A stretch of 61,799 nt of DNA, counting the filler, from Diploschistes diacapsis (taxonomy: Eukaryota), in the NCBI GenBank assembly GCA_023645945.1. It is 6 parts of 6 records of this genome, joined end to end, with 100 filler letters (N's around TTAATTAATTAA, not from the genome) between each part and the next. Parts side by side here need not be neighbours in the genome. Positions count along the whole stretch, not along the records: positions 30,976 to 41,192 come from JALAIB010000951.1; 5 more parts are not named here. The stretch is one strand, 5' to 3'. A program made the position numbers and the translations under genes. Under the pieces are notes generated by a model. That model worked only from the letters and a program-made list of their open reading frames with translations, did no database searches and was not told the DNA's origin. Shown piece by piece: positions 21,895-53,823 of the stretch. How positions within the stretch are numbered: the stretch's first letter is position 1; every line of letters starts with the position of its first letter.

Positions 21895-24800
21895 TCAAAA
21901 GAATGGACACCAACCTATATACATCCGCGCCAAATTAAATGCATCCGTTGCCTCCTGAATCAGCAGGTGCACGTGGCCCTCCACCGATAGCGGTACCGAC
22001 TCGCCAGGCAACAGGCCCCGGACCTTCGTTCTGATAGCATCCAGGACGCCCTCCGGTGTATCCGGTATAATGGATGCCGTCTTCTTTTTCTTTCCTATAA
22101 AGTCCGTAGTTGGGTCATAGAGAAACGTTTCGAGGATAGTCATGAGCGTGTGTTCATGCTGCCGAAGGATTCCCAGCGACAGCTCGCATGACTTTCTGAA
22201 CGGCCCTTCGTAGCCGTAGGCGCCAAAGGCATCCACCATGTTATGTGTTAGCCTGAACGGAACTCTCTCCGGCTTCTCAAAGGTGAGTCCCTTGTCAAAA
22301 AGACAGTTGAAATCGACGTGAAACGTCCCGCCGTTCTCCCCCTGGAAGAGTATGTTCTCCCCGTGGCGATCGCCAAGTCCAAGCACGTGTCCGACCATGG
22401 ACATGACCGCGCATGACCGCGTATATCTCAAGCGGGCTTCAAACCACGCGCTTGGCTCAGGAAACATGTCGACGAACCACTCATGGAACACTGGGTTGAA
22501 GCTTGTAAGTACTTCTTCGTCGAACTTGGATAACTTCTGCACATCGAGCGATATCTCATCCAAAATATTCTTGATTGCCGTGTAATCGGGTCTCACCCCC
22601 TTCGCCTTATACAGATCCAGGAGGATATCACGAAGAGTTCGAACGCCCTCAACCCACTCGACGAGACCGCATTCCTCGTTCAGGGGGGTCACTGCGTACG
22701 TCTTGATGTACAAGCGGCGCTTGCTGCACTCCGCATCTTTCTTCAGAAACCTCGTGATCATTGAGTTGAACTCCAGCAAGCGCTGATCTTTGCGCAGATC
22801 ATCTTTTGGCTTGCACATGACACCGTAGATACGCCCATCGGATCCACGTATATTCAGCTTCTTCGGTTTGATAAGGGAATTGAGTACCAATGCATCTTCC
22901 AAGAACGCATCAATGGTGACCGTATCTTTGGAGAACGCTTTGTGGGTTTTGATGTTCTCACCACCTGTTGGGAGAGTCGCCGTCAATGTCGCTTCAATCG
23001 GAATGGCAAGTCGGCAGGGTGCACTTTTGGTATGACTGAAACCAAGATCACTAGCCAAGCCGACTGTTCCGTGTTTTCCTACGTCGCGGTTGCATACTTT
23101 CAGAAGCTCTTCGGAAAGTTTTTGACCCTGCTTCATTATTCCCACCAACTCGGCGCGTTGCGTGTCGCTGCTGATCTTCTTCGCATTCTCCTGCACCTTG
23201 GACCATACCTCTCGACCCCTCAGGACACGATCTTCCTGCTTTTTCGACTTGATGAGAGCGAGCAGCGTCCACATAGCTTGTTGAGGATGGGAAACCACAA
23301 CTCTGGCAACAACGTCTACGAGACTGCTGTGTATCTTTTCATGAGGATGGCATATCCGAGCAACGATCTGAGTGAAGGCGGAGTAGAATATAAACGACGG
23401 CAGCCGGTCAATATACTTTTTGATTTGCCCCATTACCGCATTGAAGATCTTTTGCCTTTGAGTGTTTATATGTTCCCGAAAGTTGTGATCGTTTCCATAC
23501 TTTGAATCAACGGCTCGCCCGACATCAGTCCCAAGGTCTAGCCAAAGCGTGAGAATACGCGGCAGCGTTTGATGGATATATTTCGCGCCCATGCCGAGCG
23601 AGCGCAGATAGTTCTCGATTACCAGTTTGGCCATTTCTCCCGTAATGAACGTTTGGGCCTGTTTCGCCGGCGGCTTTGCCTTTTCCGATTCCAGGAGCTT
23701 GTTGTAGTGTTTACCAAGGTAGTAGTGCCCTTTTTCTGATCGAACATGGAAGTCAACCGCAGTTCTGTATTGTTTGATGATGGCGTCGGATTGCGTTTGG
23801 CCTGCATGGTCGACCCATTTGGCTAGTAACAGATGTGCTCGTGCTGCAACGGGGTTTTGGACTCGACCCCCCTGCGCCGCTGATCTACTTAAGGAATCTG
23901 ATAAAGCCGGAGTATCCTCTGGTTGGAACACGTTCGCAGCGATAGCTCCTTCCAGACTCTGAATTGCTTTTCGATTATGGCCTTCCTTCCAGAGCAGTCG
24001 AGCACTTTCAATCGTTGCAGCATGATCACCGAGCTGCGATGCATGCAGGACAGCATTGAACGCCTGATGCGTGAAGTTTCCCTTTCGGGCGAGCTTCGCA
24101 CTAGCAAGCCATGATGAAGATATATCAGATGCTGCAAACGTATAGCTATTTCCTAATCAGTGTGACTTCCGTGATTTGGGAACCATGATCCACCTTGAAG
24201 CTTCCATCGCTGCCCGTCTCAGCCCCAGCAAGTATTGTTTATCCGAAGCAAACGCACCAATGACACCAAGTCGTAGGTTAAGTATACCAGTAGTCGTGTT
24301 TGGATCACATTTCTTGTTCGAAGTGCGGCCTGCGATTTCTTCGAGCTCTGACAGAGCCTGGAAGCGAAGCAAGATCTCATGACAGGATTGGAGTGAAGCA
24401 ACAGTAGCTGTTGACAAGCTCCGCGCCAGGTCGCTTCGAAGGCTGTCTACAGTAGCGGTGAATCGGTCCCAGTCCTCTTGACGTAAAGCCAGTAATGCGC
24501 ACCCAACCCCAACTTCAAAGACGCGCAAATCTGTATCTGAAGCATCCTTGACTAGCTGTTCCAGATTCGCCCATCTGCCCGTCACCCAGCTTGCTTCAGC
24601 AGCAAAGGACTTGACGAGCGATGGTGAAGTATCCGATATCTTGAAGCTGGAAATCTGATTAAGAAGCGTATCTGTTCATGTCAGCTATTGAAATTGTCGA
24701 GATGCTTCCGGTGCACCCACCATACTGCCCTGACTCTCTCAGACTATCCAGCAGACTCAACTGCACTTCAGGATTACCAGGATCTTCGTTGAGCTCAAGC

Positions 24801-27800
24801 TCAAACCAGCTTTGCACTGCGGTCCATCTTCCTGCTTTGCGGTGTTCGAGAATTTGTTGATCAATCGTAATGAGGTGCATGTGGGCTGATATTCCCTCGA
24901 TTCCATCAGGCTCATCGATCTGGGAATATATGTCCTGGAGTCTTTGGTAGAGTATTTCCATTTCTTCACTACTAGTCGTACGCACTCTTTGCTCTCGAAT
25001 ATACTCCTCCCAGTGGAAGAGTGCACGTGAAAAGCTCTTACAGTCAATAGCTCGCTTCGAGAGGGTCTTTGCAGGTATGCGGCCAAGGAAATGTTCGACA
25101 TTGAAGAGTTTCTTTAGTTCAACGTTCAAAGCATCCTCCGATAGCTCCTTACCCTTCGAGGCTAGGCTTTTGAATTTTGCGATTTCTTTCTTCTTCTCTT
25201 GTACCCATCTTGAAAGATAATCGAGGGCTCGAAACACATTCTTTAGCAGTTCTTAGCAGAGCTCTCCCGTAACATCAGCGGAATACTTACATGGCTGCAG
25301 AGTATTAGGTTTTCCCTTTGTAGCTGATTCGCTTCATGCAAAGGCGTCGATAAGATGCCAAGGAACTCTGCCGCTACGTTATCAACCTGTTTCGCGGAAC
25401 CGTCCAAGACAATGTTTAAGGTAATAAAGGGAAGGATAAAGGTGGCCACAGAGATGTCTTGTCGCCGCACAATTCGCCTACAAATGGAGAACACCATTGA
25501 CGCATTTTTGCCATGTCCTTTGCCCAACAAATCGAAAACAAACTGTCGGATCCACGTCGAGTGACTCATTTCCAGAGCGTAGATCGGGTAGTGGACCTGT
25601 GGAACAGTAGCCAAAGGCTCCAAGACGTACTTGGACATCAGGAACGGTGTCAGCGTGTTCCTGATGGTTTCGGGTACCACCATCCAGCGTCGGTACAATT
25701 CGTCAGGTTGAAGGTCTTTTCGTAGGGTATTGGAGGCATCAAAGCCGCAGTTCCTCAGAAGCTCCTGAATAGCATAAGCGAACAGACCTTGGGATCGGGT
25801 ATCGGTAGTTGACAGAAAGGATTTCACAAGCACTTCCTGCAGGAAAAAAACAACAAAGTCAATGGTCTCTTCTGGATTTGTGAAGTCGGAGAGTACAAGG
25901 ATGTCTTGACTTTCCTTCGGCAGCTCAATCTTTGTGGGATCGAGGCAACCGATCATGCCTAGGCATCTGGCTGCGTTGGGAGCAACTTCAGTCTTGACCT
26001 GAGAGAACTTCAAACACACTTGAAGAAGCGAATGAACCAATGCAGCGATAACCGGATCGGGCTGCTCGCTAATGGCAGAGCCGTGTAAGAAAGATTGATG
26101 TTCTTCAAGGTATCGGTGCAGTTCCGTCAAAGCTCTTGCGACCACGGTGACGTTTTCGCTTTGGCATCGCTTTACGAATGCTTGGAATTGATGTTTCGGG
26201 TCCATCTGAGCCTTGAGTCTACCCAACTCCGTCTCGAACTTCTTCAACAATGGGATATTCCCTAATGAAGGAATAGTAGTCACCATGTCCCTCACCATGG
26301 TTGAATGAGTCTTCAGTAAAGAACTGATCATATCGTGTGCGTTTTGTTGAACTTCAGCGTCAAAGGATTCCCAATGCTCCGCGACTATAGCAAAAGTCGG
26401 ATCTATCAGGCTTTCTATGTCTTCCTCGTCCAAATTCTTCACTAAAGTCATCCATGCGCTGAACGCTTCATTGCAAAAGGTACCCTGTTCTATCGTCGAC
26501 CTTAAGCAGGAAGTAATCTAGCCAGATTAGCATATTTTCCATCGGAACTATTATTTGAAGGAAGATACCTGTGGTAAGGCATTACACAGGTGACTGCCGC
26601 CAATGACAGCCATTTCCTGTATCGCGCCAATGCAGCGTCTACGCTCCCAGTCGGCCTGCGCCCCCTTTGTCTGACTGATGATTTCGGAGAGTAACTGGAC
26701 AATGCCCAAAGCGCTCTCTTCGAAGAAGATGGCCACTGCACTATACTTCTTACTGCTTTTACGCTGAATCCTATCGGCCAGGACGTTGATTCCAAGACGC
26801 GCGCGATCCTTGGTATGCTCATCCGACTCCCCTGCCGCCTTGAGCAGTCCCGCAGCGATTTGTGTAGGGTCTGACTTGAGGATCTCATGCAAATCGATGT
26901 TTCCGAAACCCGGAGAAATTTCCGACAGAAGAGTGACGATCATCTTCTCTGGCTCGGGCGAGGGCTGAAGCAGCAAGCGAGTCAATATAGCGGCAAGCTG
27001 CTCCTTTTCTGAGCAGATGGAAACAATATTGTGTTCCGGACCATTTGCAGCTGCTATCCGCTGCAAAATTTCCTTTCTTTTCGTCAAAACTAAGAAAGGG
27101 ATCGTGAAGAACTGGGTCATCCTGAGGAAATCTTGGACACCAACGCCGAGCAAATCGCATATCAGCTGACAAACCTGGGGACGTGTCTGAAGATCTTTGA
27201 CGATCGCAACCGCGAGAGTACGCCAGTACGGCTCGAGAATGCGTAGGGCAGTGCTACCACTATGTGAGAACAGTTTCTGTAACTAGAAATATACGTTCAG
27301 TTTCTGAGGCTTTGACGGAACATGAAAGAATTCGAACCTCTTCGTACGCAAGGTTGCTAATGAAGGGATTGCTATGGCCAAGATATTCGATCAACCGCAG
27401 AAGAATAAGATTAGTCTCATCCTCGGCTTTGATACACCTATTCTATCTCAGTAATTGTCCCTACTGATGAATTATTGGCTTACCTAGCAAAGCGACCTAG
27501 TGCCAGTACGCATGTTTCCTCTAGTAAGACGTCGCCTCTTTCCGAAAGACTTCGTAATGCATCCAAGGCCTGCTTCCGATTATTTCTAAGTATCTTGGCT
27601 GGTATGCGCTCGACGAGCAAATGTGATGCGGGTCGCCTTGACACCATTAGCCTATGTTGAATTTAAAGGCTCCTAATCGAACAGACATTGCGGCAATCCT
27701 CAAGTCACGTATAGAGCTCTTCAAGGATTGAAGCGTCCATTGTGCTGTTGGAGAGATCTTCAAATCCAGCTGCTCGATACATTGTGTATGTCTGAACAGT

Positions 27801-34900: not shown

Positions 34901-36068
34901 TAGAAGAGAGAAAGATTTTCTTTTCTTCAGTTTGCCTGTAACTTATTCGTCGAGCTCGTGGCGGGTCAGGAATAGAATACCAGCTTGGGGTTTCTTGAAT
35001 GAATCTTCGACATGTCTCCGGAAACTCTCCTTGCTTAGCTAGGTCATTGAAGTAAGGTTTCCAAGGAACTGCGTGCTGGTAGATAGCTCTACGAACCATC
35101 TCCTTGAGAGATGCTGCACCGGTATTGCTGTCATCAGAACGACGTGGCCTGAGTTCTGTTTGGTACTCCAGAGGGACTTGAGGTAAATGGCCCTTTGTCG
35201 CAATTACGACGGCGAGAGATATGAGTGTTTTACCGTGACCCATAGTTTCTGCTAAGATGCCTCCCCTCGTTTCTTCATAGGAGCGCTTCTCGCTGAGAAT
35301 CTGGCCTGCGATTCTATCGAAATAAAACTGTCGTCCAGTGGGGCCACAAAGTACTTCAAGTCGCGAGTCCAGTCGAAGAGCTGGTTGCGCTTCCCTTTGA
35401 ATCATCATGGCGGCCGAACGCCTCTGGTAGTCGTACAGTCGTGTCTTGAGTCCGAGATAGTCTCTCGAGTCCTCAAGGATGTCTCCCATGGCTAGAGAGG
35501 CATGGCTGTTTGTAACTGTAAGGGGATCCGGCTGAGGTGACTGCAAGGTATTGAACATGTAGAAGAGAGAGTCCTGCTCGCTACAAATAGGTTCGTACCC
35601 ATGCGGGTTAAGCTGTAAAGTATCTAAGCCGTCCCAGCTCTCGGCGCTGCTTACTATCGCAGCCATGATGACCTTTAGCGACGAACGGACTTTCTTGTCT
35701 TCTCTAGGAACTACGCCGCGTCCGATATCATCGGGTAAAAGGTAGACTCTCATCGCGGCCATCGTACAGCCAATGATCTGCAAGACAAAGATGCGGATCC
35801 AGCCATTGAGATACAAGGTATCTAGGTGTCTGCCAAGCTCATGGCGCTCTGGAAGATAAGAGGACGGGTTGCTTCCAATTTCTTGAACCTGCGCAGCGGG
35901 TGCACTTGCGGTGTTGGGTTCATATCTAATAGTGCCCAATGGAAGGTACTTCTCAAGGGCAAGAGGTCCAAACTTGGGCCTAGCGTTCTTCTTGACCTTG
36001 ACCTTGACCTTGGAGCTGGTTGGGCCTACAGCGCCGGGGGAAGATGCGGCTGATGCGGCTGTCGTCAT
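31995..36068 (-). CDS. SNF2-family ATPase (Rad5/Rad16-like group), single exon
   Basis: LYDYQ, GGILAETMGHGKT, TLIVVP, IVDEGH, ISGTP, HGLHV, WNPSTEAQAIKRAHRIGQ; ATG 36068 (AAAAATG) preferred. Confidence 0.9.
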   Translation of the reverse strand: MTTAASAASSPGAVGPTSSKVKVKVKKNARPKFGPLALEKYLPLGTIRYEPNTASAPAAQVQEIGSNPSSYLPERHELGRHLDTLYLNGWIRIFVLQIIGCTMAAMRVYLLPDDIGRGVVPREDKKVRSSLKVIMAAIVSSAESWDGLDTLQLNPHGYEPICSEQDSLFYMFNTLQSPQPDPLTVTNSHASLAMGDILEDSRDYLGLKTRLYDYQRRSAAMMIQREAQPALRLDSRLEVLCGPTGRQFYFDRIAGQILSEKRSYEETRGGILAETMGHGKTLISLAVVIATKGHLPQVPLEYQTELRPRRSDDSNTGAASLKEMVRRAIYQHAVPWKPYFNDLAKQGEFPETCRRFIQETPSWYSIPDPPRARRISYRQTEEKKIFLSSNTLIVVPTNLMNHWQQEVATHLEKDALSMVVFLDDAHSLPTAEELLKLDVILMSKTRFEDEIAPRKNNLIGKLGKSGARGFTSLHSCCCSGRKRACPIHEYRSSLLDIHFLRFIVDEGHNFASATSNRATAGLRSIHVERKWIISGTPSKGLLGLEIDMATEYAADGEGKSSTEQQQDILEKRRMRPSAELEGKDLAALGHAVTNFLGLQPWANSRSQEDSASWQSYLVPDATGMRKAGNLRCVLESLVVRHQINEIEKDLELPPLNNKIVYLQPCYSDKITLNLFTLIIVSNAITSERADEDYMFHTKNKSQLEKLIKNLRQAGFHYPGWSCDEVSESVRIGQEYLDKHGNYLSAEDEKMLKTAVAAGEMALDTMGWKAHSESKELGLLVENFPIKYETRWGLYSTEDDEPALIGLTQLIDAQTDVDGNIFASDPFKVLARRDRPATWDSGSVPVSQTSPSSITATSPKKGQGAVSAARKVIMNSSLEASQKLTPREFNMHKARSRTRAMTPDTSESNEDVESAEPGLKSAIKSQSRCDRPLPEAYDKVSKVKLIATSCAKLSYLLDRVLELHEHEKILIFYDADHVAYYVGQALEVLQIPHAIYATGIKVEMKARYLEKFNKGQHTRVLLMDLKQAAHGLHVASASRVFFINPVWNPSTEAQAIKRAHRIGQTRPVFAETLVLTGTMEAKMLERRKAMTTSEHQKASKSPLDDLTMNDIIKAAEFQNVCYEHVHQVVPQMAPLKVPQQVFGREFIGRGPGRATAPRESEATNEGSAPTDKTNLKKRKAAFLDELEESYPPKSPRLESHVEPTCKPFRNELSTPIAKPASQKRKATFADEVDEVDEVRASKISRLHEPPTGMANSNGTQAHTSPGKPIPPSSQLYDPRAVLAEAEAVANKWKQFLVNTMDSPDTAGVSGFTGILSPSSTSGDERGGTTGVPGASKERKTADEEDESAPKAKSIRFAA

Positions 36069-37104
36069 TTTTTGATGCAGATGCCAATAACTGGTTTGAT
36101 GGAGCAGGAGAAGAACCGGAATGTGTGTGCAAGGCAAATTTGAGAAGCTCCAGTCACGGAATGAAGAACCAAGTTGGAATATCGCATGGCTTCAAAGATG
36201 ATCAAGAATTCTCATAATCGAAAAAGCATCAACAAATTAGACTATCGATATCGTGGAATCCCCTGCCACCCGTCGAAATTGTTAGCAATTACAGCAAAAG
36301 CATCCAAAGTGATGGAACAAGACAGAGAGGTAGTAGTTACACAGAAGGCAGCAAGATGAGCCGCCAGAGTCAGGAAGCAAACATATCCCGTAGGGCTGTA
36401 GGATTGCTATGGAAATGAGTTTAGTCCAACTTTTAGCGTATAAACAGCACGGAGGTGCTGCGCCTCCACTCGGTGCCAACAGCCACTACTGGTTCAGCAA
36501 ACAGTTTCCTCGACCTTCTTCATCAACCAATTCAGCAGCGTCTCTCTTATATTCGACTCAAGCTCTAGCATAGATTGATTGAGCAGCTCCTAACTACCTA
36601 GATGGAGCAATCTCATCGTAATTGTTCCTGATATTGAATACCCATTATCGACACCTAAGCCGATCCGAGACTTTGCTAGCGAGTGTGAAAAACTACCTAA
36701 AGGCAGCTAGTAAAAAGAACACACCATCCTACCATATAAGGAAAGTCGCCTTCCCATAACTTCTGGCATGAAGGGAACAGAGTCAAGGAGCCATCTAGAT
36801 AACTGCCCTTGCTATCACCAACCGCATTTTGCTAGAAGCACAGCGCTAAGAGAATAGAAACTAAAGGAAACAAGGAGGTTTTCAACCATTGCTCGGCAAA
36901 CCTGAAGCAGAGGAATCTACTCAAGGCTCGCCAAGGCTCTCAGGGTGATGAGGCCTCTTCTAGTCTGTCAATCGTGACATATCTCTTTTGGGAGTGCGAA
37001 CCTATACTCACTGGTTAATGCAGCGGCCATCTCCTTTGATTGTATGAATAGAGGATCGAAGAGTGTAATGAGATAAGATCAATTTTGGAAGGAGAACGAA
37101 GCAG

Positions 37105-37112
37105 AAAAAAAA
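37105..37112 (-). terminator. Pol III oligo-dT terminator
   Basis: T8 on the minus strand, 2 nt after the tRNA-like gene's discriminator base. Confidence 0.75.
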
Positions 37113-37114
37113 GA

Positions 37115-37189
37115 TAGCGATGCCTGGGTTTGAACCAGGGGTCTTTGAAGTTAACATTTCAACGCATTTGCCAACTATGCTACATCGCT
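37115..37189 (-). tRNA. Atypical tRNA-like gene with 8-nt anticodon loop (GTT/Asn or TTA depending on register)
   Basis: AGCGATG TA GCAT AGTTGGCAA ATGC G TTGAA ATGTTAAC TTCAA AGACC CCTGG TTCAAAC CCAGG CATCGCT A; all four stems fully Watson-Crick paired; A box and B box intact. Confidence 0.85.
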
Positions 37190-37405
37190 GCTTGTTGAGA
37201 ACTGGATATCCTATTCTTGTCTATTACATGTTGTGTTGGTTGTTGTTGAGTCATCGTCCATGGCTGAGTCATATATTCATGAAGGCTCTGTCGAAATTGT
37301 TCAGGACTATGGACCACCAGCCGCAGTTGAGGCTGTTGCTTCAAGTAGCCACCCGGCGACAGTCCTGAAAGCAAAGTTCAGTGCAAGAGCTAGGAGACTG
37401 AGAAT

Positions 37406-38044
37406 TCAAGTTATGTACAGAAAACCACCGCAATAATTTTCAGCATCGTCACAAAGACATCGGCATGGGCACCATTCATATTTCAAAGCCATTATCCTTG
37501 CCACCATTTCCCGATGCAAATCAACTATTAATGCTGCCTGCCAGAACAGGTTGACCGCAGTCCCGGGGACTGGGGGTTCTGCGCCCGGCAAATCAGTATT
37601 GACGGTCTGATTAGTGCCTTCAAGGGTAGAGAATATCGGTGAATAGTCCATAAGCGGGAGGCGTTACCTTCGGTGTGAATTTGGATAATCTAGAACTGGC
37701 TGTCGTTGGACTGTGTAAGTATCTTACGTTAGCCATGCTTCTAAGTTTCCTTTAATGAAGGATAGAGAACAATGAGTTATACCCCAAAGAGTCCAGTCCT
37801 CAGCCCCGAGCCGCATGCACCACTTTGCTGCAGGCCATCGCCCTGAATCGCCACGTTGATGGTGTCGTTGCAAGCGCCGTTAGGGCTGGTAAGCTGCACG
37901 CCAGCATCCGACTTGAGATTCCATGCTGGTACAGGTCACTGAAATCGTGCCTTGGCCGGAAGGCGAGGCGGCCTCGAAGCTTGCCAAGGGGGCGGCGGAC
38001 GAGCCAGCGGCTATGATGGATACGAGGAGGGCTTGGGTCAACAT
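37406..38044 (-). pseudogene. Probable decayed small secreted protein gene, 3 exons
   Basis: Signal-peptide-like MLTQALLVSIIAAGSSA-AP; 1-nt frameshift near 37931; introns 37782-37711 and 37667-37618; in-frame TAG at 37690-37692. Confidence 0.55.
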
Positions 38045-39365
38045 CTTGAAGACGACAGCTATACTTTGAGCGTGCCTAAAGCGTGAAGCTGGTTTGCTTG
38101 TCTTGGTTGGCTTGTGAAGCGCCGTGCTTGTCTTGTGAGTTCGTCATGCAGGAGCTGATGGTATCTCTCAAAGAATGAGTTACTTCCTATTATGAGGATA
38201 GAGAGCCCAATCTGATGACAGAAGTCTTAGCTCCAAAAAGCTATTACTCCGTATGCAGGCATACCAGCAACTCCGTGAGAGCCTCTTCACCAAGCTATGA
38301 CAAACTCACGGGTTCTAGTGACAGCGGATATGCGCGGACAAGTCAACCGCAGTATGGTGGTAGAGGCCTAACGCTAAGCACGTTAACATCCGTGCAAGTC
38401 GGTCCTGAAGCCCTGAGAGATGGCGCATCGCAGTATGTGGGTCGGTACCTTTGTGCATCCTTAAGGAGGGAATGCAAATTGCAATTGAATTCGATCTGCC
38501 ACACAATCCCTTGATACTTTCCAACTATACAAAAAGTAGTGGCCAACGTGGTGAAGGACAGTGGTGCACAGGGGCTTGTCGACTTATGATAACGGCATAA
38601 AGTTGCAAGACAGCCAAATCACTGAGATACACTGTAGATACAGTTATGGTTGCGAAGCCTTCCCGAGCAAGGATTCCGTCAAGGCCCCTGAGGGATGCAA
38701 AGCTAGTAAACATACAGAAATCATCTCACCTCTTCGATGCTCACCATGACTGTTGCAAAAAAATAATCGTATAGTAAGGTTCGCTTCGGGGAAAAGGAGG
38801 GAGCGGTGATGAACGCCGATGAAAGGAAAAAGGGGTATAAGCTGCCAGAACAGAGGTATAGTCGGTGCTGCACAGTTTGCATCTCACATTCCGCTATATA
38901 TGGAACACTCAGCGTTCACCACGTAAATCAGGGCTATCATTGGCCCTTTACTCCAATACGAGGCTTCACGGGGTCGAGGCCGTACAGTACGCAAAGAATG
39001 TGGCAATTGTAGTCCGGAGCTCAGAGAGGCGTCTGTGAACCAAAAGTTACAAGCAGGCCTGAGTAGATAAAGCCGCCAGAGTTTCATAATCCGGATCAGA
39101 ATCTTGTCGGAGAACCCGCGCTAAGCTTGGCGCACCTGGTAGATAGCGGGTCGACGGTTGGTGCTTCATCTTCTTGTTGCCGTAGCTTGGAAACGATACT
39201 ACCCTCTTATGTGAATCTGTGCTACTGGCTTGGATCCAAGGAGCAGACTCACTGTGAAAGCAGAAGCACATGGAAGCTATTGTCCAGCCATGACTTTCGC
39301 TTTCTCCAAACTATGACCCGTCTCTATAATATGTACAGAAGCCATCCGAGAAGACAAGGGCGATC

Positions 39366-40549
39366 TCACCGCACATTCTGCTGCCTCTCGATCTCCTCCC
39401 GGAACACGTTTCCAGCATTTCGCGATCGATCCTCTCTCGTGGAGCCCTGAAACCCGCCCTGGCCAAGCTCCACATTATCCGTTATCGGCTCATCCCGATA
39501 GACCGACTCGGAGGGATAGATTTCCTGTTCTGAGAGACCAACCGCGCCTCTTTTCCCCATACGTTGGGTGCGGGATTTGCCCACACCGTATCCCTTACGT
39601 CGTCCCATGACATTGCCGATGCCAATGTTTCTAGTCTTCCGCATTCCGAAATACAAGACGGCGAGTATGAAGCCAGCTACGGCCACCCCTATTGGGAGAC
39701 CCACAGCAAGACCGAGGGTGTTGATCGTGCTGTGTGGGGATGCTGGCAGCGGGTGGGCGGGCGGTATCGGGACGAGGTAGATGATCGGTCCTTGAAATGG
39801 GGTCGCTGGTTGGTCCTCATTACCGTTGTTGGCAATAAGTGTAAACTGTGCAGTGACCTGACTTCCACCATTGAGCCAAGCTTGATCAGCTGGAAGAAAC
39901 ACGAAGCCGAGATTTTTGTCAGTCGCAACTGAGTGCCAAATGTTGGTTGGCGTGGTTTGATTGACTGGGTCGAGGGAGATGATGATTCGGGTGCCGTTGG
40001 AGAATTGGCCAGGCCACCACGTTACTATAAGCAGTCAGCGACATGGCCAAAATAGAGTTCTCGGCTGCACGCACCATAGTAAGTACTCCCAACAGTCTTC
40101 GAGCTCCTATTCACCGGCCTGCAGAACGGGAAGAACCTGGATGCGTGTGCATCGCCTTCAGTGCACGTACTCAGGCCGCTCCCAGGTATAGCTGTTGCGG
40201 ATGGTGCGAGAGTGCTCCCTGTAAAAGTCGAAGTCACCAGGTCGCCTGGGTCGTTGGTGCCAACAGTGGTTCCGGAAGCTGTGGAAGATGACGCTGTGGT
40301 TGATGTTGAGGACACGGACGATGTAATTGACGATAATGTAGTGCTTATAGATGCTGAGCTGGTCGTGGAAGATGCTATAGTAGTGGCTGGGAGAGAATGT
40401 TAGTATTGAAATTAAATTTGATGCTGCACTTTAAGTGTCGTACAAGAGGGCTCCTGGCGAGGCAGAACAGCGCTGGCTATTGCAAAGGCAGGGAGTACAG
40501 CGAAGGCTGATACCAGAGCAAGAGCCCTGAGTGGCCGTGTGGGCTTCAT
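39366..40549 (-). CDS. Type I membrane protein, Ser/Thr-rich, Psg1/DUF4448-like, 3 exons
   Basis: Signal peptide, S/T-rich stalk, PFCRP...VGSTYY|VTW, TM helix LAVGLPIGVAVAGFILAVLYFG, tail RKGYGVGKSRTQR...NVFREEIERQ. Confidence 0.78.
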
Positions 40550-48757: not shown

Positions 48758-50469
48758 ATGGGTGAGTGTTGATTTCTGTCTGATATACTTAACCACGCTG
48801 TATATATTGTTATCAAGTACAACCCCAACCTTGTGCCAGGTCAAGAACTGCATCAAATCTTTAGCTTGATTCGGGCTCTTCTTCTTTTGGTATCTGTGAA
48901 GCTAACGTATGCCCTTTCCGGTGCACCTCACCAGCTTACAGACTCCGCCGCGAAAAGAGTCGCTCGTACAGAGGGCCCGTCCACCAGCTCCGAGATCACA
49001 TCATGCCATTCGGAGGCAGCGATCGCCAGCCTTTACTGGGACATCTGAGAGCTGACACGCCGCATCTGCACCTCAGTCGGCATGACTTGACCAAGAGCGA
49101 CAACGCTTTCGCGCGCTGGCCGGCGCAGGCTCTGGCGACGACATGGGCCGTTCTCAAGACGAACCCGGTGAACCTGCTGCTCGTGTTCGTGCCGCTGGGG
49201 ATCATAGCGGCCAACGTAGGATGGAGCCCGACCGCCGTCTTTGTCATGAACTTTCTGGCCATCATCCCGCTGGCCGCGCTCTTGAGTTTTGCGACGGAAG
49301 AGATTTCGTGCAAGGTCGGGCAGACGGTGGGCGGCTTGCTGAATGCCACCTTCGGCAACGCCGTTGAGCTTATCGTGAGCGCTCTGACTTTGACAGCCCT
49401 CGATGGTTTCACAGTCGCTAATTCTGACCATAGGTGTCTATAGTCGCTCTCAAAGAGGGCGAAATCCGCATTGTACAGTCCAGCATGCTGGGCTCGATCC
49501 TGTCCAACACCTTGCTCGTGCTCGGCTGCTGCTTCATAGCCGGCGGCATCAACAAACTCGAGCAGCGCTTCGACACCACTGTCGCGAGTACCATGTCCTC
49601 GCTTATGGCCGTCGCCTCTGCCTCCCTCATCATCCCAGCCACGCTCTACGCCGTGATGGACCGCAGGCCCGGCGGCTCGTCCCGGGACCGCGACGACAAC
49701 ATCATGATATTATCGCGGGGCACGTCGATCATCCTGCTAATCCTATACGTACTCTACCTAATCTTCCAACTCAAAACGCACAACAAGTATTTCGACGGCA
49801 AGCCGGACGAAGAATCCCAGGAAGGCGGCGAGGGCCAGCAGCAGCAGCAGGCGCAGGAAGCGGACGACGAGCCGCAGATCCTCACGCCCTGGACGGCCGC
49901 GCTCTGGCTCGTGCTCGTCACCGTGCTGGTCGCCGTGTGCGCCGAGTATCTAGTCGACAGCATCGACAGCATCGTCGCGTCCACGGGCATCTCCAAGACT
50001 TTTATCGGCCTGATCCTGCTGCCCATCGTGGGCAACGCGGCTGAGCACGTGACGGCCGTGGTGGTCAGCTACAAGAGCAAGATGGACTTGGCGATCGGCG
50101 TGAGCATCGGGAGCAGCATGCAGATTGCGCTGCTGGTGACCCCGTTCCTCGTGATCCTGGGTTGGATCGTCGGGCAGCCGATGACGTTGCATTTCGAGAC
50201 CTTCGAGACGGTGGTGTTCTTTTTGAGCGTCTTGGTGGTTAACTGTGAGTCTGGCCCGGTCCCTTCTTCGTTTCCTTTGGCGGCAGTTCGGGGAAAGACC
50301 ATGGCTTTGGATGTCACTTGCTAACGTTTTGGGGACGGCAGATCTGATTCAGGACGGCAAGTCGAACTATCTCGAGGGCGCCATGTGCATCGGCATCTAC
50401 ACCATCATCGCGCTCGCCTTTTACGTCTATCCGGAGGAGACACCGAAGCCTGACACCCCTTTCCTTTGA
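48758..50469 (+). CDS. VCX1: Vacuolar Ca2+/H+ exchanger (CAX family); 5' exon structure tentative
   Basis: Alpha repeats LLNATFGNAVE and LPIVGNAAEH; LGSILSN; IGSSMQIAL; DGKSNYLEG; acidic central loop. Confidence 0.93.
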
Positions 50470-52027: not shown

Positions 52028-53823
52028 CTACTCCCCCATGCTGACCTTCGGCCCCGTGAACCTCTTCCTCCCACTCACGACCCACGTCACTAGACTGACG
52101 AGCCCAATCACCCCGGTAGCAGCGCTTGTGTAGTTCATGTTCTGCGCGGTCACGGGCGCAAAGCCGGGGAAGTTGAAGGTTATGCTCGCGAAGACGAGGA
52201 AGAGGAGACCGATGACGTTGATGGGCGCGCCGAACCTGCCGAGGGTGTAAGGGCCGGAGAGGAGTGTTGCGTTTGGTGAGGAGGAGGGGCGAGTCAGGCG
52301 GTGGAGGAGGGCGGCGAGGAGAGGTGTGGCGTAGGAGAGGTCTTGGAGGGGAAGGGTTAGCGAGAATAAGGGGGGGGAAGGGGGAAGAGGAAGGAATGAA
52401 AGGTTGGCTTTCTTTCTTGTTATGGAGCTGCGGAGACAACTCACAGAAGCCCGCCGTTGAGATGGCAATCACAGTGTTAAAGCCCTCCACCGTTCCAAAG
52501 TAGATCGAGTTCAGCGCCATCTGCGCCCCACAGGCCAGCATCACCGCATTGGCGGGCACGCTGGCTCCGCCGCCCACGGTCCGTACTCTCGCCCAAGTAT
52601 CTGAGAAGGGCAAGCCTCTATCCCTCGCAAACGCATATAGCGCCCTCGACCCCTCTGCCTCCAGGAAAACAACGGTCGCTAACGCAATGACAGCGAAAAG
52701 GCCAGCCAGGACGCATGCCCCAGCGACCGAGGATGTGGAGTCGAAGAATATTTGGATGAGGGGTACGCCAGTGGGTGTGGAAGCGACGCTGCCGAAGTCC
52801 CCAATGCAAAAGCAGACGGCGATGAGGAACACGAGGCCTGTGAGGCCGCCGATTACGACGGAGAGGATGATGGCTTTGGGGGCTTCGGTTGTGGCGAATA
52901 ACATTTCTTCTGTCATGTGCTAGATTGGGAAAGGGTTCTGTAAGCAGCAGTCGTTGTCGCATGATGCAAGCGATTGATAAAAGGGGACTATGAAGGCCGT
53001 GGAGGGATTTCACGAACCGCTGGAGCGTCATAGCAGCACCTAGATGAGTGTTAGCAAGCTCGGTTTGTGGGCTTGGAGGATAAGTCTTATAATACATGCC
53101 AAACGCACTTTGAAGTACTCCCAATAACCCCGCCATCGCCGGTCCCCAGCCTGTCAGGTTCTGGAATTCAGCAAACACAAACGAGGCTGGTTGCTTGTGG
53201 TCGTTACACGCGAGAATTGTGATGACCACGACGAAGAAGCTTGCAATGTTCCAAACCATCATGACCTTGGACATCCGTTCTAGCAAGTGCGACCCAAATA
53301 GATTCGCCAGCGCCGCCAGCAATGCAACAGAATACGACGCAAGCACCGTATGCCATTGCTTAATGGCATACCCAGGGTAGCTCAGATTAGCCATGCCGAG
53401 AATAAAGTTTGCGCCAACAAAACTTGTTGTTGCCGCCATAGCAAGGATTCCCGTGATCATAAACCACCCTGTGATCCAACTCATGCCTCTAGCTATACTT
53501 TTCGGAGCAAGTACCATTACCCACGAGTACTGTCCTCCAGCCACCGGGTATGCGGAACAGATCTCGGCCAGCGAGGAAGCGACGGCGAGGGTCAAGAGTG
53601 AAACTGCTATCCACGAATATATCATCACGGGCGGGCCGCCTGATTCAATACCGACCACAAGCACGCTGCCGAGAGCTGACCAGGAAGTGACAATGCAGAA
53701 GGAAAAGCCGAGCATTCCTAGGAGGCTAAAGGATCGCTTGAGTTCTTGGGCGTAGCCGAGATTCTCCAGCATCAAGGACTCTGGGACCTCGGGGGAGAAG
53801 GCTGGGTCGGCCTTTTTCTCCAT
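52028..53823 (-). CDS. APC-superfamily amino acid/choline/GABA permease (ACT family), 4 exons
   Basis: LGYAQELKRSFS, LAEICSAYPVAGGQY, GM|CCYDAPA|HMTEEM, SRALYAFARDRGLPFS, NMNYTS, RKRFTGP. Confidence 0.92.

What the first reader, a model, noticed from the sequence alone, without database searches (positions are those of the whole stretch)
37105..37189. Intact Pol III tRNA-like gene with 8-nt anticodon loop and non-standard identity
Seen: 75-nt cloverleaf, all 21 stem pairs Watson-Crick, A box (TAGCATAGTTGG), B box (GGTTCAAACCC) and T8 terminator, so it does not look decayed. The loop is AUGUUAAC (37157-37150): 5' register gives U33-GUU (Asn); 3' register gives UUA (complementary to UAA); a four-base reading GUUA would pair with UAAC. 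It also holds the self-complementary hexamer GUUAAC. Established: normal loops are 7 nt with a pyrimidine at 32; tRNA-Asn uses G73 whereas this has A73; A1:U72 is typical of eukaryotic initiator tRNA, but the loop and T arm are not initiator-like; 8-nt loops can act as +1 frameshift suppressors. Inference: candidate recoding/suppressor tRNA, single-nucleotide-intron tRNA, or tRNA-shaped non-translational RNA. Strongest candidate for something undescribed here.
Basis: partly seen in the sequence, partly recalled or inferred. Interest (0 to 1): 0.75.

Follow-up and report, generated by a model that had tools for sequence, protein, structure and literature searches.

The report
Odd eight-base-loop tRNA gene, lichen fungus
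A lichen-forming fungus carries a well-formed transfer-RNA gene whose anticodon loop has one base too many; the extra base is real, but nothing shows that the gene does anything unusual, and a close relative's copy is already picking up damaging changes.

Summary
At window 37115-37189 (- strand) lies a 75-nt tRNA gene: Rfam tRNA 57.5 bits against a threshold of 29, and ARAGORN calls 'tRNA-???' with anticodon gtta. All 21 of 21 stem pairs are Watson-Crick. It has A and B boxes and a T8 run, and its anticodon loop is the 8-nt AUGUUAAC. The extra base is not an assembly error: contigs of three public runs from three studies (one may be the source) show no insertion or deletion inside the gene.

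The host is a lecanoromycete (lichen-forming) fungus. Nothing supports a recoding role. All three stop codons close ORFs in the window, and TAAC-bridged ORF pairs are no commoner than those at other stop+N quadruplets. No homologue appeared in the metagenome, prokaryote or viral collections.

The one diverged relative (about 4%) has two changes in the gene. G4>A makes an A:C mismatch in the acceptor stem, and G15>A breaks the G15:C48 pair. That rate (2 of 75) does not differ from the flanks (11 of 271).

Identity is mixed: an Asn-type loop (U33-GUU-A37) but A73 where Asn tRNAs have G73, and A1:U72 without other initiator marks.

Best reading (about 50%): a Pol III tRNA gene of undetermined specificity under weak or no constraint. 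No fungal genomes, RNA data or isotype models were available.

The parts
37115..37189 (-). 75-nt tRNA-shaped gene (acceptor 7 bp, D 4 bp, anticodon 5 bp, T 5 bp, discriminator A)
   Evidence: ARAGORN tRNA-??? (gtta). Rfam RF00005 57.5 bits. 21 of 21 stem pairs are Watson-Crick.
37150..37157 (-). 8-nt anticodon loop AUGUUAAC, closed by a perfect 5-bp stem UUGAA/UUCAA
   Evidence: No insertion or deletion here in contigs of X1, X2 or X3. A 7-nt register would leave only 3 of 5 stem pairs, one of them G:U (read by hand).
37171..37182 (-). A-box-like stretch TAGCATAGTTGG (tRNA positions 8-19)
   Evidence: Sequence. The consensus is recalled, not tested. X2 has G15>A inside it.
37126..37136 (-). 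B-box-like stretch GGTTCAAACCC (tRNA positions 52-62)
   Evidence: Sequence. Unchanged in X2 and X3.
37105..37112 (-). T8 run 2 nt after the discriminator, a Pol III terminator-like signal
   Evidence: Sequence. In X2 the trailer differs (37112, 37113) and three more T are present, which I work out to a run of 10 T, so a terminator-like run is kept.

Best explanation
This is a nuclear, Pol III-type tRNA gene of undetermined specificity in a lecanoromycete (lichen-forming) fungus. Its anticodon loop is Asn-like (A32 U33 G34 U35 U36 A37) with one extra base on the 3' side, which can be written A37.5 or an extra C before position 39. It is probably transcribed and folded, because its boxes, terminator and cloverleaf are intact. 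It probably contributes little or nothing to decoding: the loop is the wrong size, position 32 is a purine, and the discriminator is A73 rather than the G73 that asparagine tRNAs use. It therefore drifts at about the neutral rate, making it a young or slowly dying tRNA gene rather than a recoding device. Shown here: the gene, its 8-nt loop in three assemblies, and the changes in X2. Inferred: transcription, poor charging and lack of function.
For: (1) It is a true tRNA by covariance model and ARAGORN, and the 8-nt loop is real in 3 of 3 runs that cover it.
(2) In run X2 (about 4% diverged, another study) the gene has 2 changes in 75 nt against 11 in 271 nt of flank (Fisher p = 0.74). If the gene evolved ten times slower than its flanks, two or more changes would be expected with p = 0.04.
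(3) Both X2 changes hurt the structure. G4>A gives an A4:C69 mismatch, and G15>A breaks the G15:C48 tertiary pair.
(4) Intactness in the window copy is weak evidence. With 2% divergence on a branch, no change in 42 stem bases is expected 43% of the time.
(5) Identity marks conflict. The loop is Asn-type, but Asn identity rests on the anticodon plus G73, and yeast tRNA-Asn has G73 (passages of PMC9976931).
(6) No sign of need for a recoding tRNA. TAA, TAG and TGA all close long ORFs (3, 3 and 8 of 14). There is 1 TAAC-bridged ORF pair out of 23 such pairs over all twelve stop+N quadruplets.
(7) No homologue with this loop among 25 metagenome matches.
Against: All 21 stem pairs are Watson-Crick, and the boxes and terminator are intact in the window and in X3 (0 changes in 75 nt).

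No simple parent exists. Removing any one loop base gives an Asn, Tyr or UUA loop, or a loop without U33, yet the body has A1:U72 and A73, unlike what I recall of eukaryotic Asn or Tyr tRNAs. The gene therefore does not look like a fresh copy of a standard isoacceptor with one insertion. That hints at a longer independent history under structural constraint.

The pooled count of changes (2 seen, 4.9 expected if neutral, p = 0.14) is also compatible with mild constraint.

8-nt loops can work in normal triplet decoding, as in yeast mitochondrial tRNA-Thr(UAG) (PMC7609411 passage; PMC3113583 abstract).

I had no fungal genomes, no RNA data and no isotype models.
Confidence: 0.5

Rival explanations
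1. It is a working elongator tRNA that reads ordinary triplets (AAC/AAU with G34 U35 U36) despite its 8-nt loop. It would be charged with asparagine or with another amino acid set by A73 and the acceptor stem.
For: The cloverleaf, boxes and terminator are perfect. The loop is kept in three assemblies, and the gene is identical in X3. A natural 8-nt-loop tRNA that reads triplets exists in yeast mitochondria (PMC7609411 passage). A32 with a GUU anticodon occurs in ordinary 7-nt-loop tRNA-Asn genes: 21 of 25 metagenome matches.
Against: A73 conflicts with Asn identity. X2 carries an acceptor mismatch and a broken 15:48 pair. The substitution rate does not differ from the flanks. No related gene was found elsewhere.
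Confidence: 0.15
2. It is a recoding tRNA: either a +1 frameshifter at AAY-N, a reader of the quadruplet UAAC (anticodon GUUA), or an ochre suppressor in the UUA register.
For: The loop architecture, with an extra base 3' of the anticodon, is that of classic frameshift suppressors such as SufB2 (abstract seen; the placement of their extra base is recalled). ARAGORN itself reads a four-base anticodon gtta.
Against: TAA closes 3 of 14 long ORFs, one of them followed by C. That TAAC lies in a CTAAC stretch, which I read as an intron branch site (the motif is recalled). Only 1 TAAC-bridged ORF pair was found, the same as or fewer than for the other stop+N quadruplets. The UUA register has G at position 33. 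GUU cannot re-pair well in the +1 frame of AAC-N (inference). An efficient frameshifter on Asn codons would be harmful (inference). The window holds only about 20 genes, so the test is weak.
Confidence: 0.05
3. It is kept for a role outside translation. It could be a TFIIIC/Pol III-bound site acting on neighbouring chromatin in the gene-poor 3-kb stretch upstream of the SNF2-family gene, or a source of a small tRNA-shaped RNA.
For: The B box is unchanged and a T run is kept in X2 although the trailer changed. The gene sits alone in a stretch without long ORFs (36200-39300), about 1 kb upstream of the SNF2-family ORF. Barrier activity of tRNA genes is recalled from yeast work and was not tested.
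Against: There is no direct evidence of any kind. Such a role would not explain the perfect stems. X2 changes a base inside the A box.
Confidence: 0.15
4. It is a tRNA with a one-base intron that is removed to give a normal 7-nt Asn loop.
For: Only the arithmetic: dropping one A or the C restores a 7-nt loop with GUU.
Against: The gene is exactly one base longer than a standard cloverleaf, so no bulge-helix-bulge or intron-anticodon helix can form. I recall no one-base tRNA intron, and my searches listed none.
Confidence: 0.02

Closest known systems
Predicted nuclear tRNA genes 'of undetermined specificity' (for example the tX(XXX) entries of the yeast genome database; recalled, not checked here)
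   Same: A good cloverleaf and Pol III signals, but an anticodon loop that cannot be assigned; single copy; function unknown.
   Different: This one has no evident parent isoacceptor and has A1:U72. Its host is a lichen-forming lecanoromycete.
Frameshift-suppressor tRNAs with 8-nt loops (bacterial SufB2/SufA6, yeast SUF16)
   Same: An 8-nt anticodon loop on an otherwise normal tRNA (abstract of 10.1101/2020.12.31.424971; PMC6701816 passage and its references).
   Different: Those are laboratory-selected mutants of Pro or Gly tRNAs that act at runs of identical bases. This is a natural gene with a GUU anticodon and no slippery target, and no suppression has been shown.
Yeast mitochondrial tRNA-Thr(UAG) with an enlarged 8-nt loop
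   Same: A natural tRNA with an 8-nt loop (PMC7609411 passage; PMC3113583 abstract).
   Different: That tRNA is organellar, is tied to a known codon reassignment (CUN to Thr), and is conserved and shown to be active. None of this is shown here.
'GUUA quadruplet anticodon' tRNA-Asn annotated in a chloroplast genome (Gossypium sturtianum; PMC9840617)
   Same: The same four-base call from an automatic annotation, read as GUU plus an inserted A (passages).
   Different: That is a plastid gene with a clear tRNA-Asn parent, and it too was only predicted. Here the body is not Asn-like (A73, A1:U72).
Bacterial and phage tRNA-Asn(GUU) with loop AUGUUAA
   Same: They share the string ATGTTAAC and A32 (21 of 25 metagenome matches).
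   Different: There the C is position 39, paired with G31, so the loop has 7 nt. The bodies are unrelated: 47-50 identical columns of 78-83 in the 6 that I aligned.

Membership tests
tRNA (Rfam RF00005) | Covariance-model score at or above the gathering score | tested here: met
   57.5 bits against 29, model positions 1-71 of 71.
tRNA (Rfam RF00005) | 7-nt anticodon loop with U33 | tested here: not met
   The loop has 8 nt. U is second in the loop, so U33 is kept only in the 5' register.
Eukaryotic nuclear Pol III tRNA gene | Internal A and B boxes and a downstream T run | tested here: met
   TAGCATAGTTGG, GGTTCAAACCC and T8 starting 2 nt after the gene. The consensus is recalled. Transcription was not tested, and no RNA holder was listed.
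tRNA-Asn(GUU) | Anticodon GUU | tested here: inconclusive
   GUU follows U33 in the 5' register, but the loop has an extra base.
tRNA-Asn(GUU) | Discriminator G73 | tested here: not met
   The discriminator is A. The rule is from passages of PMC9976931.
Eukaryotic initiator tRNA-Met | A1:U72, CAU anticodon, three G:C pairs at the foot of the anticodon stem, A54 and A60 | tested here: not met
   Only A1:U72 (and A73) are present. The stem UUGAA/UUCAA has one G:C pair, the T loop is TTCAAAC, and there is no CAU. The feature list is recalled.
Frameshift-suppressor tRNA | 8-nt anticodon loop | tested here: met
Frameshift-suppressor tRNA | Demonstrated +1 decoding, or genes that need it | tested here: inconclusive
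   There is no excess of TAAC-bridged ORF pairs in 61.8 kb (1 of 23 over all stop+N). Activity is not testable with these tools.
Ochre suppressor tRNA (anticodon UUA) | U33 directly before the anticodon in a 7-nt loop | tested here: not met
   In the UUA register the base before the anticodon is G.
tRNA-derived SINE | Many copies, with a tRNA-unrelated body 3' of the tRNA head | tested here: not met
   The window has a single copy. The T8 terminator follows 2 nt after the gene. There are no repeats in 35500-40000 apart from one 26-nt pair at 77%. The genome-wide copy number could not be tested.

The most novel reading that the evidence does not exclude
A lichen-forming lecanoromycete keeps an expressed, aminoacylated nuclear tRNA with a natural 8-nt anticodon loop (GUU plus one base), with A1:U72 and A73. 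This tRNA would serve programmed recoding, either +1 shifts at AAY-N or reading of UAAC, or would carry a non-Asn amino acid to Asn codons. It would be the first natural nuclear expanded-loop decoder in fungi.
Probability: 0.06. Interest if true: 0.8.

Novelty: new member of a known kind. Interest (0 to 1): 0.3.

Why it matters
If it were active, a natural nuclear tRNA with an expanded anticodon loop would bear on how reading frame and tRNA identity are kept, and would give genetic-code engineers a natural template. As it stands, it is a clean, verified example of an unassignable tRNA gene in a little-studied fungal class. It also shows that an intact-looking cloverleaf is not evidence of function when the nearest relative's copy is already accumulating damaging changes.

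Tried and rejected
- **Whole genome:** none is held for this window. Copy number, the normal tRNA set and a possible parent gene could not be examined.
- **RNA evidence:** no RNA holder was listed among the 6 runs. This says nothing about expression.
- **Run X4** (share 0.05): nothing was laid on 36700-37600. This is no evidence of absence.
- **Metagenome scan** with a pattern asking for the tRNA frame plus the loop ATGTTAAC gave 25 loci. ARAGORN called 21 as ordinary 7-nt-loop tRNA-Asn and 1 (L015) as an 8-nt loop, and called nothing at 3 matches. L015 has a poor acceptor stem and falls below the Rfam threshold. None is related to the window gene (I aligned 6 of the 31 loci fetched). The pattern needs the exact loop, so homologues with a changed loop would be missed.
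- **D-arm pattern:** 5 loci in prokaryote genomes and 1 in viral contigs. Only a tRNA-Gln and a tRNA-His carry it; the other 4 are not tRNAs. Overall identity is about 60%. There is therefore no sign of bacterial or phage origin.
- **Repeat-induced point mutation:** the dinucleotide indices around the gene match those of the rest of the window.
- **Mobile-element context:** no repeats of note.
- **Bacterial promoter/terminator scan:** empty and not relevant.
- **Earlier findings of this scan:** nothing on this genome or on look-alikes. Three unrelated tRNA notes came up.
- **Literature** (5 searches): no paper listed describes a nuclear fungal tRNA with an 8-nt loop. Three strings of the gene occur in no searched text. 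Supplementary files were not opened.
- **One-base intron:** rejected on geometry.

Full report
**What is there.** Read on the - strand, window 37189-37115 is a 75-nt cloverleaf:
- acceptor AGCGATG/CATCGCT
- U8 A9
- D arm GCAT-AGTTGGCAA-ATGC
- G26
- anticodon arm TTGAA-ATGTTAAC-TTCAA
- variable loop AGACC
- T arm CCTGG-TTCAAAC-CCAGG
- discriminator A, then TC and eight T

A script counted 21 stem pairs, all Watson-Crick, with no G:U. ARAGORN finds this one tRNA in the 61.8-kb window and cannot name it: 'tRNA-???, anticodon (gtta)'. The Rfam tRNA model scores it at 57.5 bits against a gathering score of 29 and places one extra base in the anticodon loop. A permissive Rfam scan of the whole window adds only a chance-level snoRNA hit.

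The alternative 7-nt register would leave only three of five anticodon-stem pairs, one of them G:U, so the 8-nt loop is the sensible reading. As bare RNA, the cloverleaf (-19.3 kcal/mol) ties with a fold that pairs the D loop with the anticodon loop (-19.6). The z-score against shuffles is only -1.55. This is usual for unmodified tRNA sequence.

**Is the extra base real?** Six public runs were listed for the 3.1 kb around the gene.
- X1 is a lichen metagenome that holds all the sampled words and may be the source of the window.
- X2 is a named organism, coded A, with share 0.36.
- X3 is a rock metagenome with share 0.20.

Laid on 36700-37600, the contigs of X1, X2 and X3 cover the gene, and none shows an inserted or missing letter between 37115 and 37189 (tables 4 and 8). 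So the loop has 8 nt in three assemblies from three studies, two of them independent of the window. X3 has a depth of only about 5. X4 laid nothing. No RNA run was listed, so expression is untested.

**The host and the surroundings.** No genome is held. The window carries eukaryotic genes:
- an SNF2-family helicase
- an ATR-type kinase
- a cyclin
- a Psg1-like protein
- an amino-acid permease

The named proteins closest to the SNF2-family neighbour are from lichen-forming Lecanoromycetes: Thelotrema lepadinum at 58% identity, then Stictis and Xylographa. The gene sits alone in a stretch without long ORFs (about 36200-39300), roughly 1 kb upstream of the SNF2-family ORF. There are no repeats of note around it and no repeat-induced point-mutation signature. 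The T run starts 2 nt after the gene, so it is not the head of a tRNA-derived SINE.

**Evidence on constraint.** X2's contig matches 36999-37344 with 13 substitutions and 4 gapped letters. Two of the substitutions lie in the gene. On the tRNA strand they are G4>A and G15>A. G4>A turns the G4:C69 pair into an A:C mismatch. G15>A breaks the G15:C48 tertiary pair.

The rate in the gene (2 of 75) does not differ from that of the flanks (11 of 271; Fisher p = 0.74). If the gene evolved ten times slower than its flanks, two or more changes would have a probability of 0.04.

X3 is identical over the gene (0 of 75 against 10 of 412 in the rest of its contig; p = 0.37). Pooled, 2 changes are seen where 4.9 are expected under neutrality (p = 0.14). 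The data therefore fit neutrality and do not exclude mild constraint.

The clean cloverleaf of the window copy proves little. On a branch with 2% divergence, 42 stem bases stay untouched 43% of the time. In X2 the trailer changed, but by my working the T run grew to ten, so a terminator-like run is kept.

**Identity.** The loop A-U-G-U-U-A-A-C contains the U33-GUU-A37-A38 string of asparagine tRNAs plus one base. The review PMC9976931 (passages) states that asparagine identity rests on the anticodon and discriminator G73, and that yeast tRNA-Asn has G73. This gene has A73.

A1:U72 with A73 recalls the eukaryotic initiator, but the other initiator marks that I recall are absent from the sequence. 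Those marks are a CAU anticodon, three G:C pairs at the foot of the anticodon stem, and A54 and A60.

Removing any single loop base gives an Asn, Tyr or UUA loop, or a loop without U33. None fits the body. The gene is therefore not simply a standard isoacceptor with one fresh insertion. This is the main point against my best reading and remains unexplained.

**Search for relatives.** I used a pattern that asks only for generic tRNA landmarks at the right spacing plus the loop ATGTTAAC. It matches the gene once in the window and never in 100 shuffles. In the metagenome contigs it found 25 loci. ARAGORN results were:
- 21 ordinary tRNA-Asn(GUU) genes with a 7-nt loop AUGUUAA, in which the C is position 39 paired with G31. 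Several lie in tRNA arrays (six or more tRNA genes within the locus at L004, L014, L016 and L019); I take these 21 to be bacterial or phage genes, an inference that no tool tested.
- 1 (L015) with an 8-nt loop, but with a poor acceptor stem and no Rfam match.
- 3 with no tRNA called at the match.

None resembles the window gene beyond the generic level: 47-50 identical columns of 78-83 in the six that I aligned.

A D-arm pattern found five loci in prokaryote genomes and one in viral contigs. Only a tRNA-Gln and a tRNA-His carry it within a tRNA.

So no family was found. However, no collection of fungal genomes was available, and the loop pattern cannot see homologues with a changed loop.

**Test of the recoding idea.** TAA, TAG and TGA close 3, 3 and 8 of the 14 long ORFs examined. 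The one TAA followed by C lies in a CTAAC stretch inside the Na/Ca-exchanger gene, which I read as an intron branch site (the motif is recalled). ORF pairs of 80 or more codons bridged by a quadruplet number 1 for TAAC and 1 to 4 for each of the other eleven stop+N words. In the UUA register the base before the anticodon is G, not U. Nothing points to recoding, but a window of about 20 genes is a weak test.

**What is known.**
- Natural 8-nt loops are described for yeast mitochondrial tRNA-Thr(UAG), which reads CUN triplets (PMC7609411 passage; PMC3113583 abstract).
- Laboratory frameshift suppressors such as SufB2 and yeast SUF16 carry an extra loop base (abstracts; PMC6701816 passage).
- An automatic 'GUUA' call for a chloroplast tRNA-Asn was published as a putative quadruplet anticodon without experiments (PMC9840617 passages).
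- Five searches listed no nuclear fungal case.
- I recall that genome databases list nuclear tRNA genes 'of undetermined specificity'. I did not check this.

**Verdict.** The most likely reading (about 0.5) is a Pol III tRNA gene of undetermined specificity that is weakly constrained or unconstrained and adds little to decoding. The rivals, with my estimated probabilities, are:
- a working triplet reader: 0.15
- a role outside translation: 0.15
- a recoding tRNA: 0.05
- a one-base intron: 0.02

The rest is unassigned. Interest is modest. It would rise sharply if tRNA sequencing showed a charged RNA, or if distant Lecanoromycetes kept the loop.

Noticed in passing
window 37149-37176 (- strand; tRNA positions 14-21 and 34-41): The D loop (AGUUGGCA) is complementary to the anticodon loop region (UGUUAACU): 8 pairs, 2 of them G:U. 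As a result, the minimum-energy fold of the bare RNA is not the cloverleaf (-19.6 against -19.3 kcal/mol). This is probably chance.
   Followed up: partly
window 36200-39300: This is a stretch of about 3 kb without long ORFs around the tRNA gene, between the SNF2-family ORF and the Psg1-like ORF. GC is 0.48 and there is no RIP-like signature. I did not work out what it holds.
   Followed up: partly
L001-L025 (metagenome contigs): 21 of 25 matches are tRNA-Asn(GUU) genes with a purine (A) at position 32 (loop AUGUUAA, G31:C39). Several lie in dense tRNA arrays, for example L004 and L019 with 17 and 22 tRNA genes. So A32 is not rare in Asn tRNAs of what I take to be bacteria or phages.
   Followed up: partly
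L015:765-839 (-): This is a second 'tRNA-??? (gtta)' with the same 8-nt loop string in an unrelated contig. It has a weak acceptor stem, no T run and no Rfam tRNA match. It looks like a decayed tRNA-like sequence.
   Followed up: partly
window 50318-50330 (+): The Na/Ca-exchanger ORF ends at TAA within GCTAACG, which looks like a fungal intron branch site, so the ORF end is probably an intron and not a stop.
   Followed up: partly
window 21895-26451 (-): An ATR-type kinase gene is spread over at least two long ORFs (PI3/PI4 kinase and FATC domains in one, M-HEAT in the other), presumably joined by introns.
   Followed up: no
window 52208-52300 (+): There is a weak match to the archaeal C/D-box snoRNA family sR53 (22.5 bits, gathering 49, E 0.6). 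It is most likely chance.
   Followed up: no
window 36980-36999: One contig of run X3 replaces 18 bases with 65 other letters, an insertion/deletion difference about 120 bases downstream of the tRNA gene in that relative.
   Followed up: no
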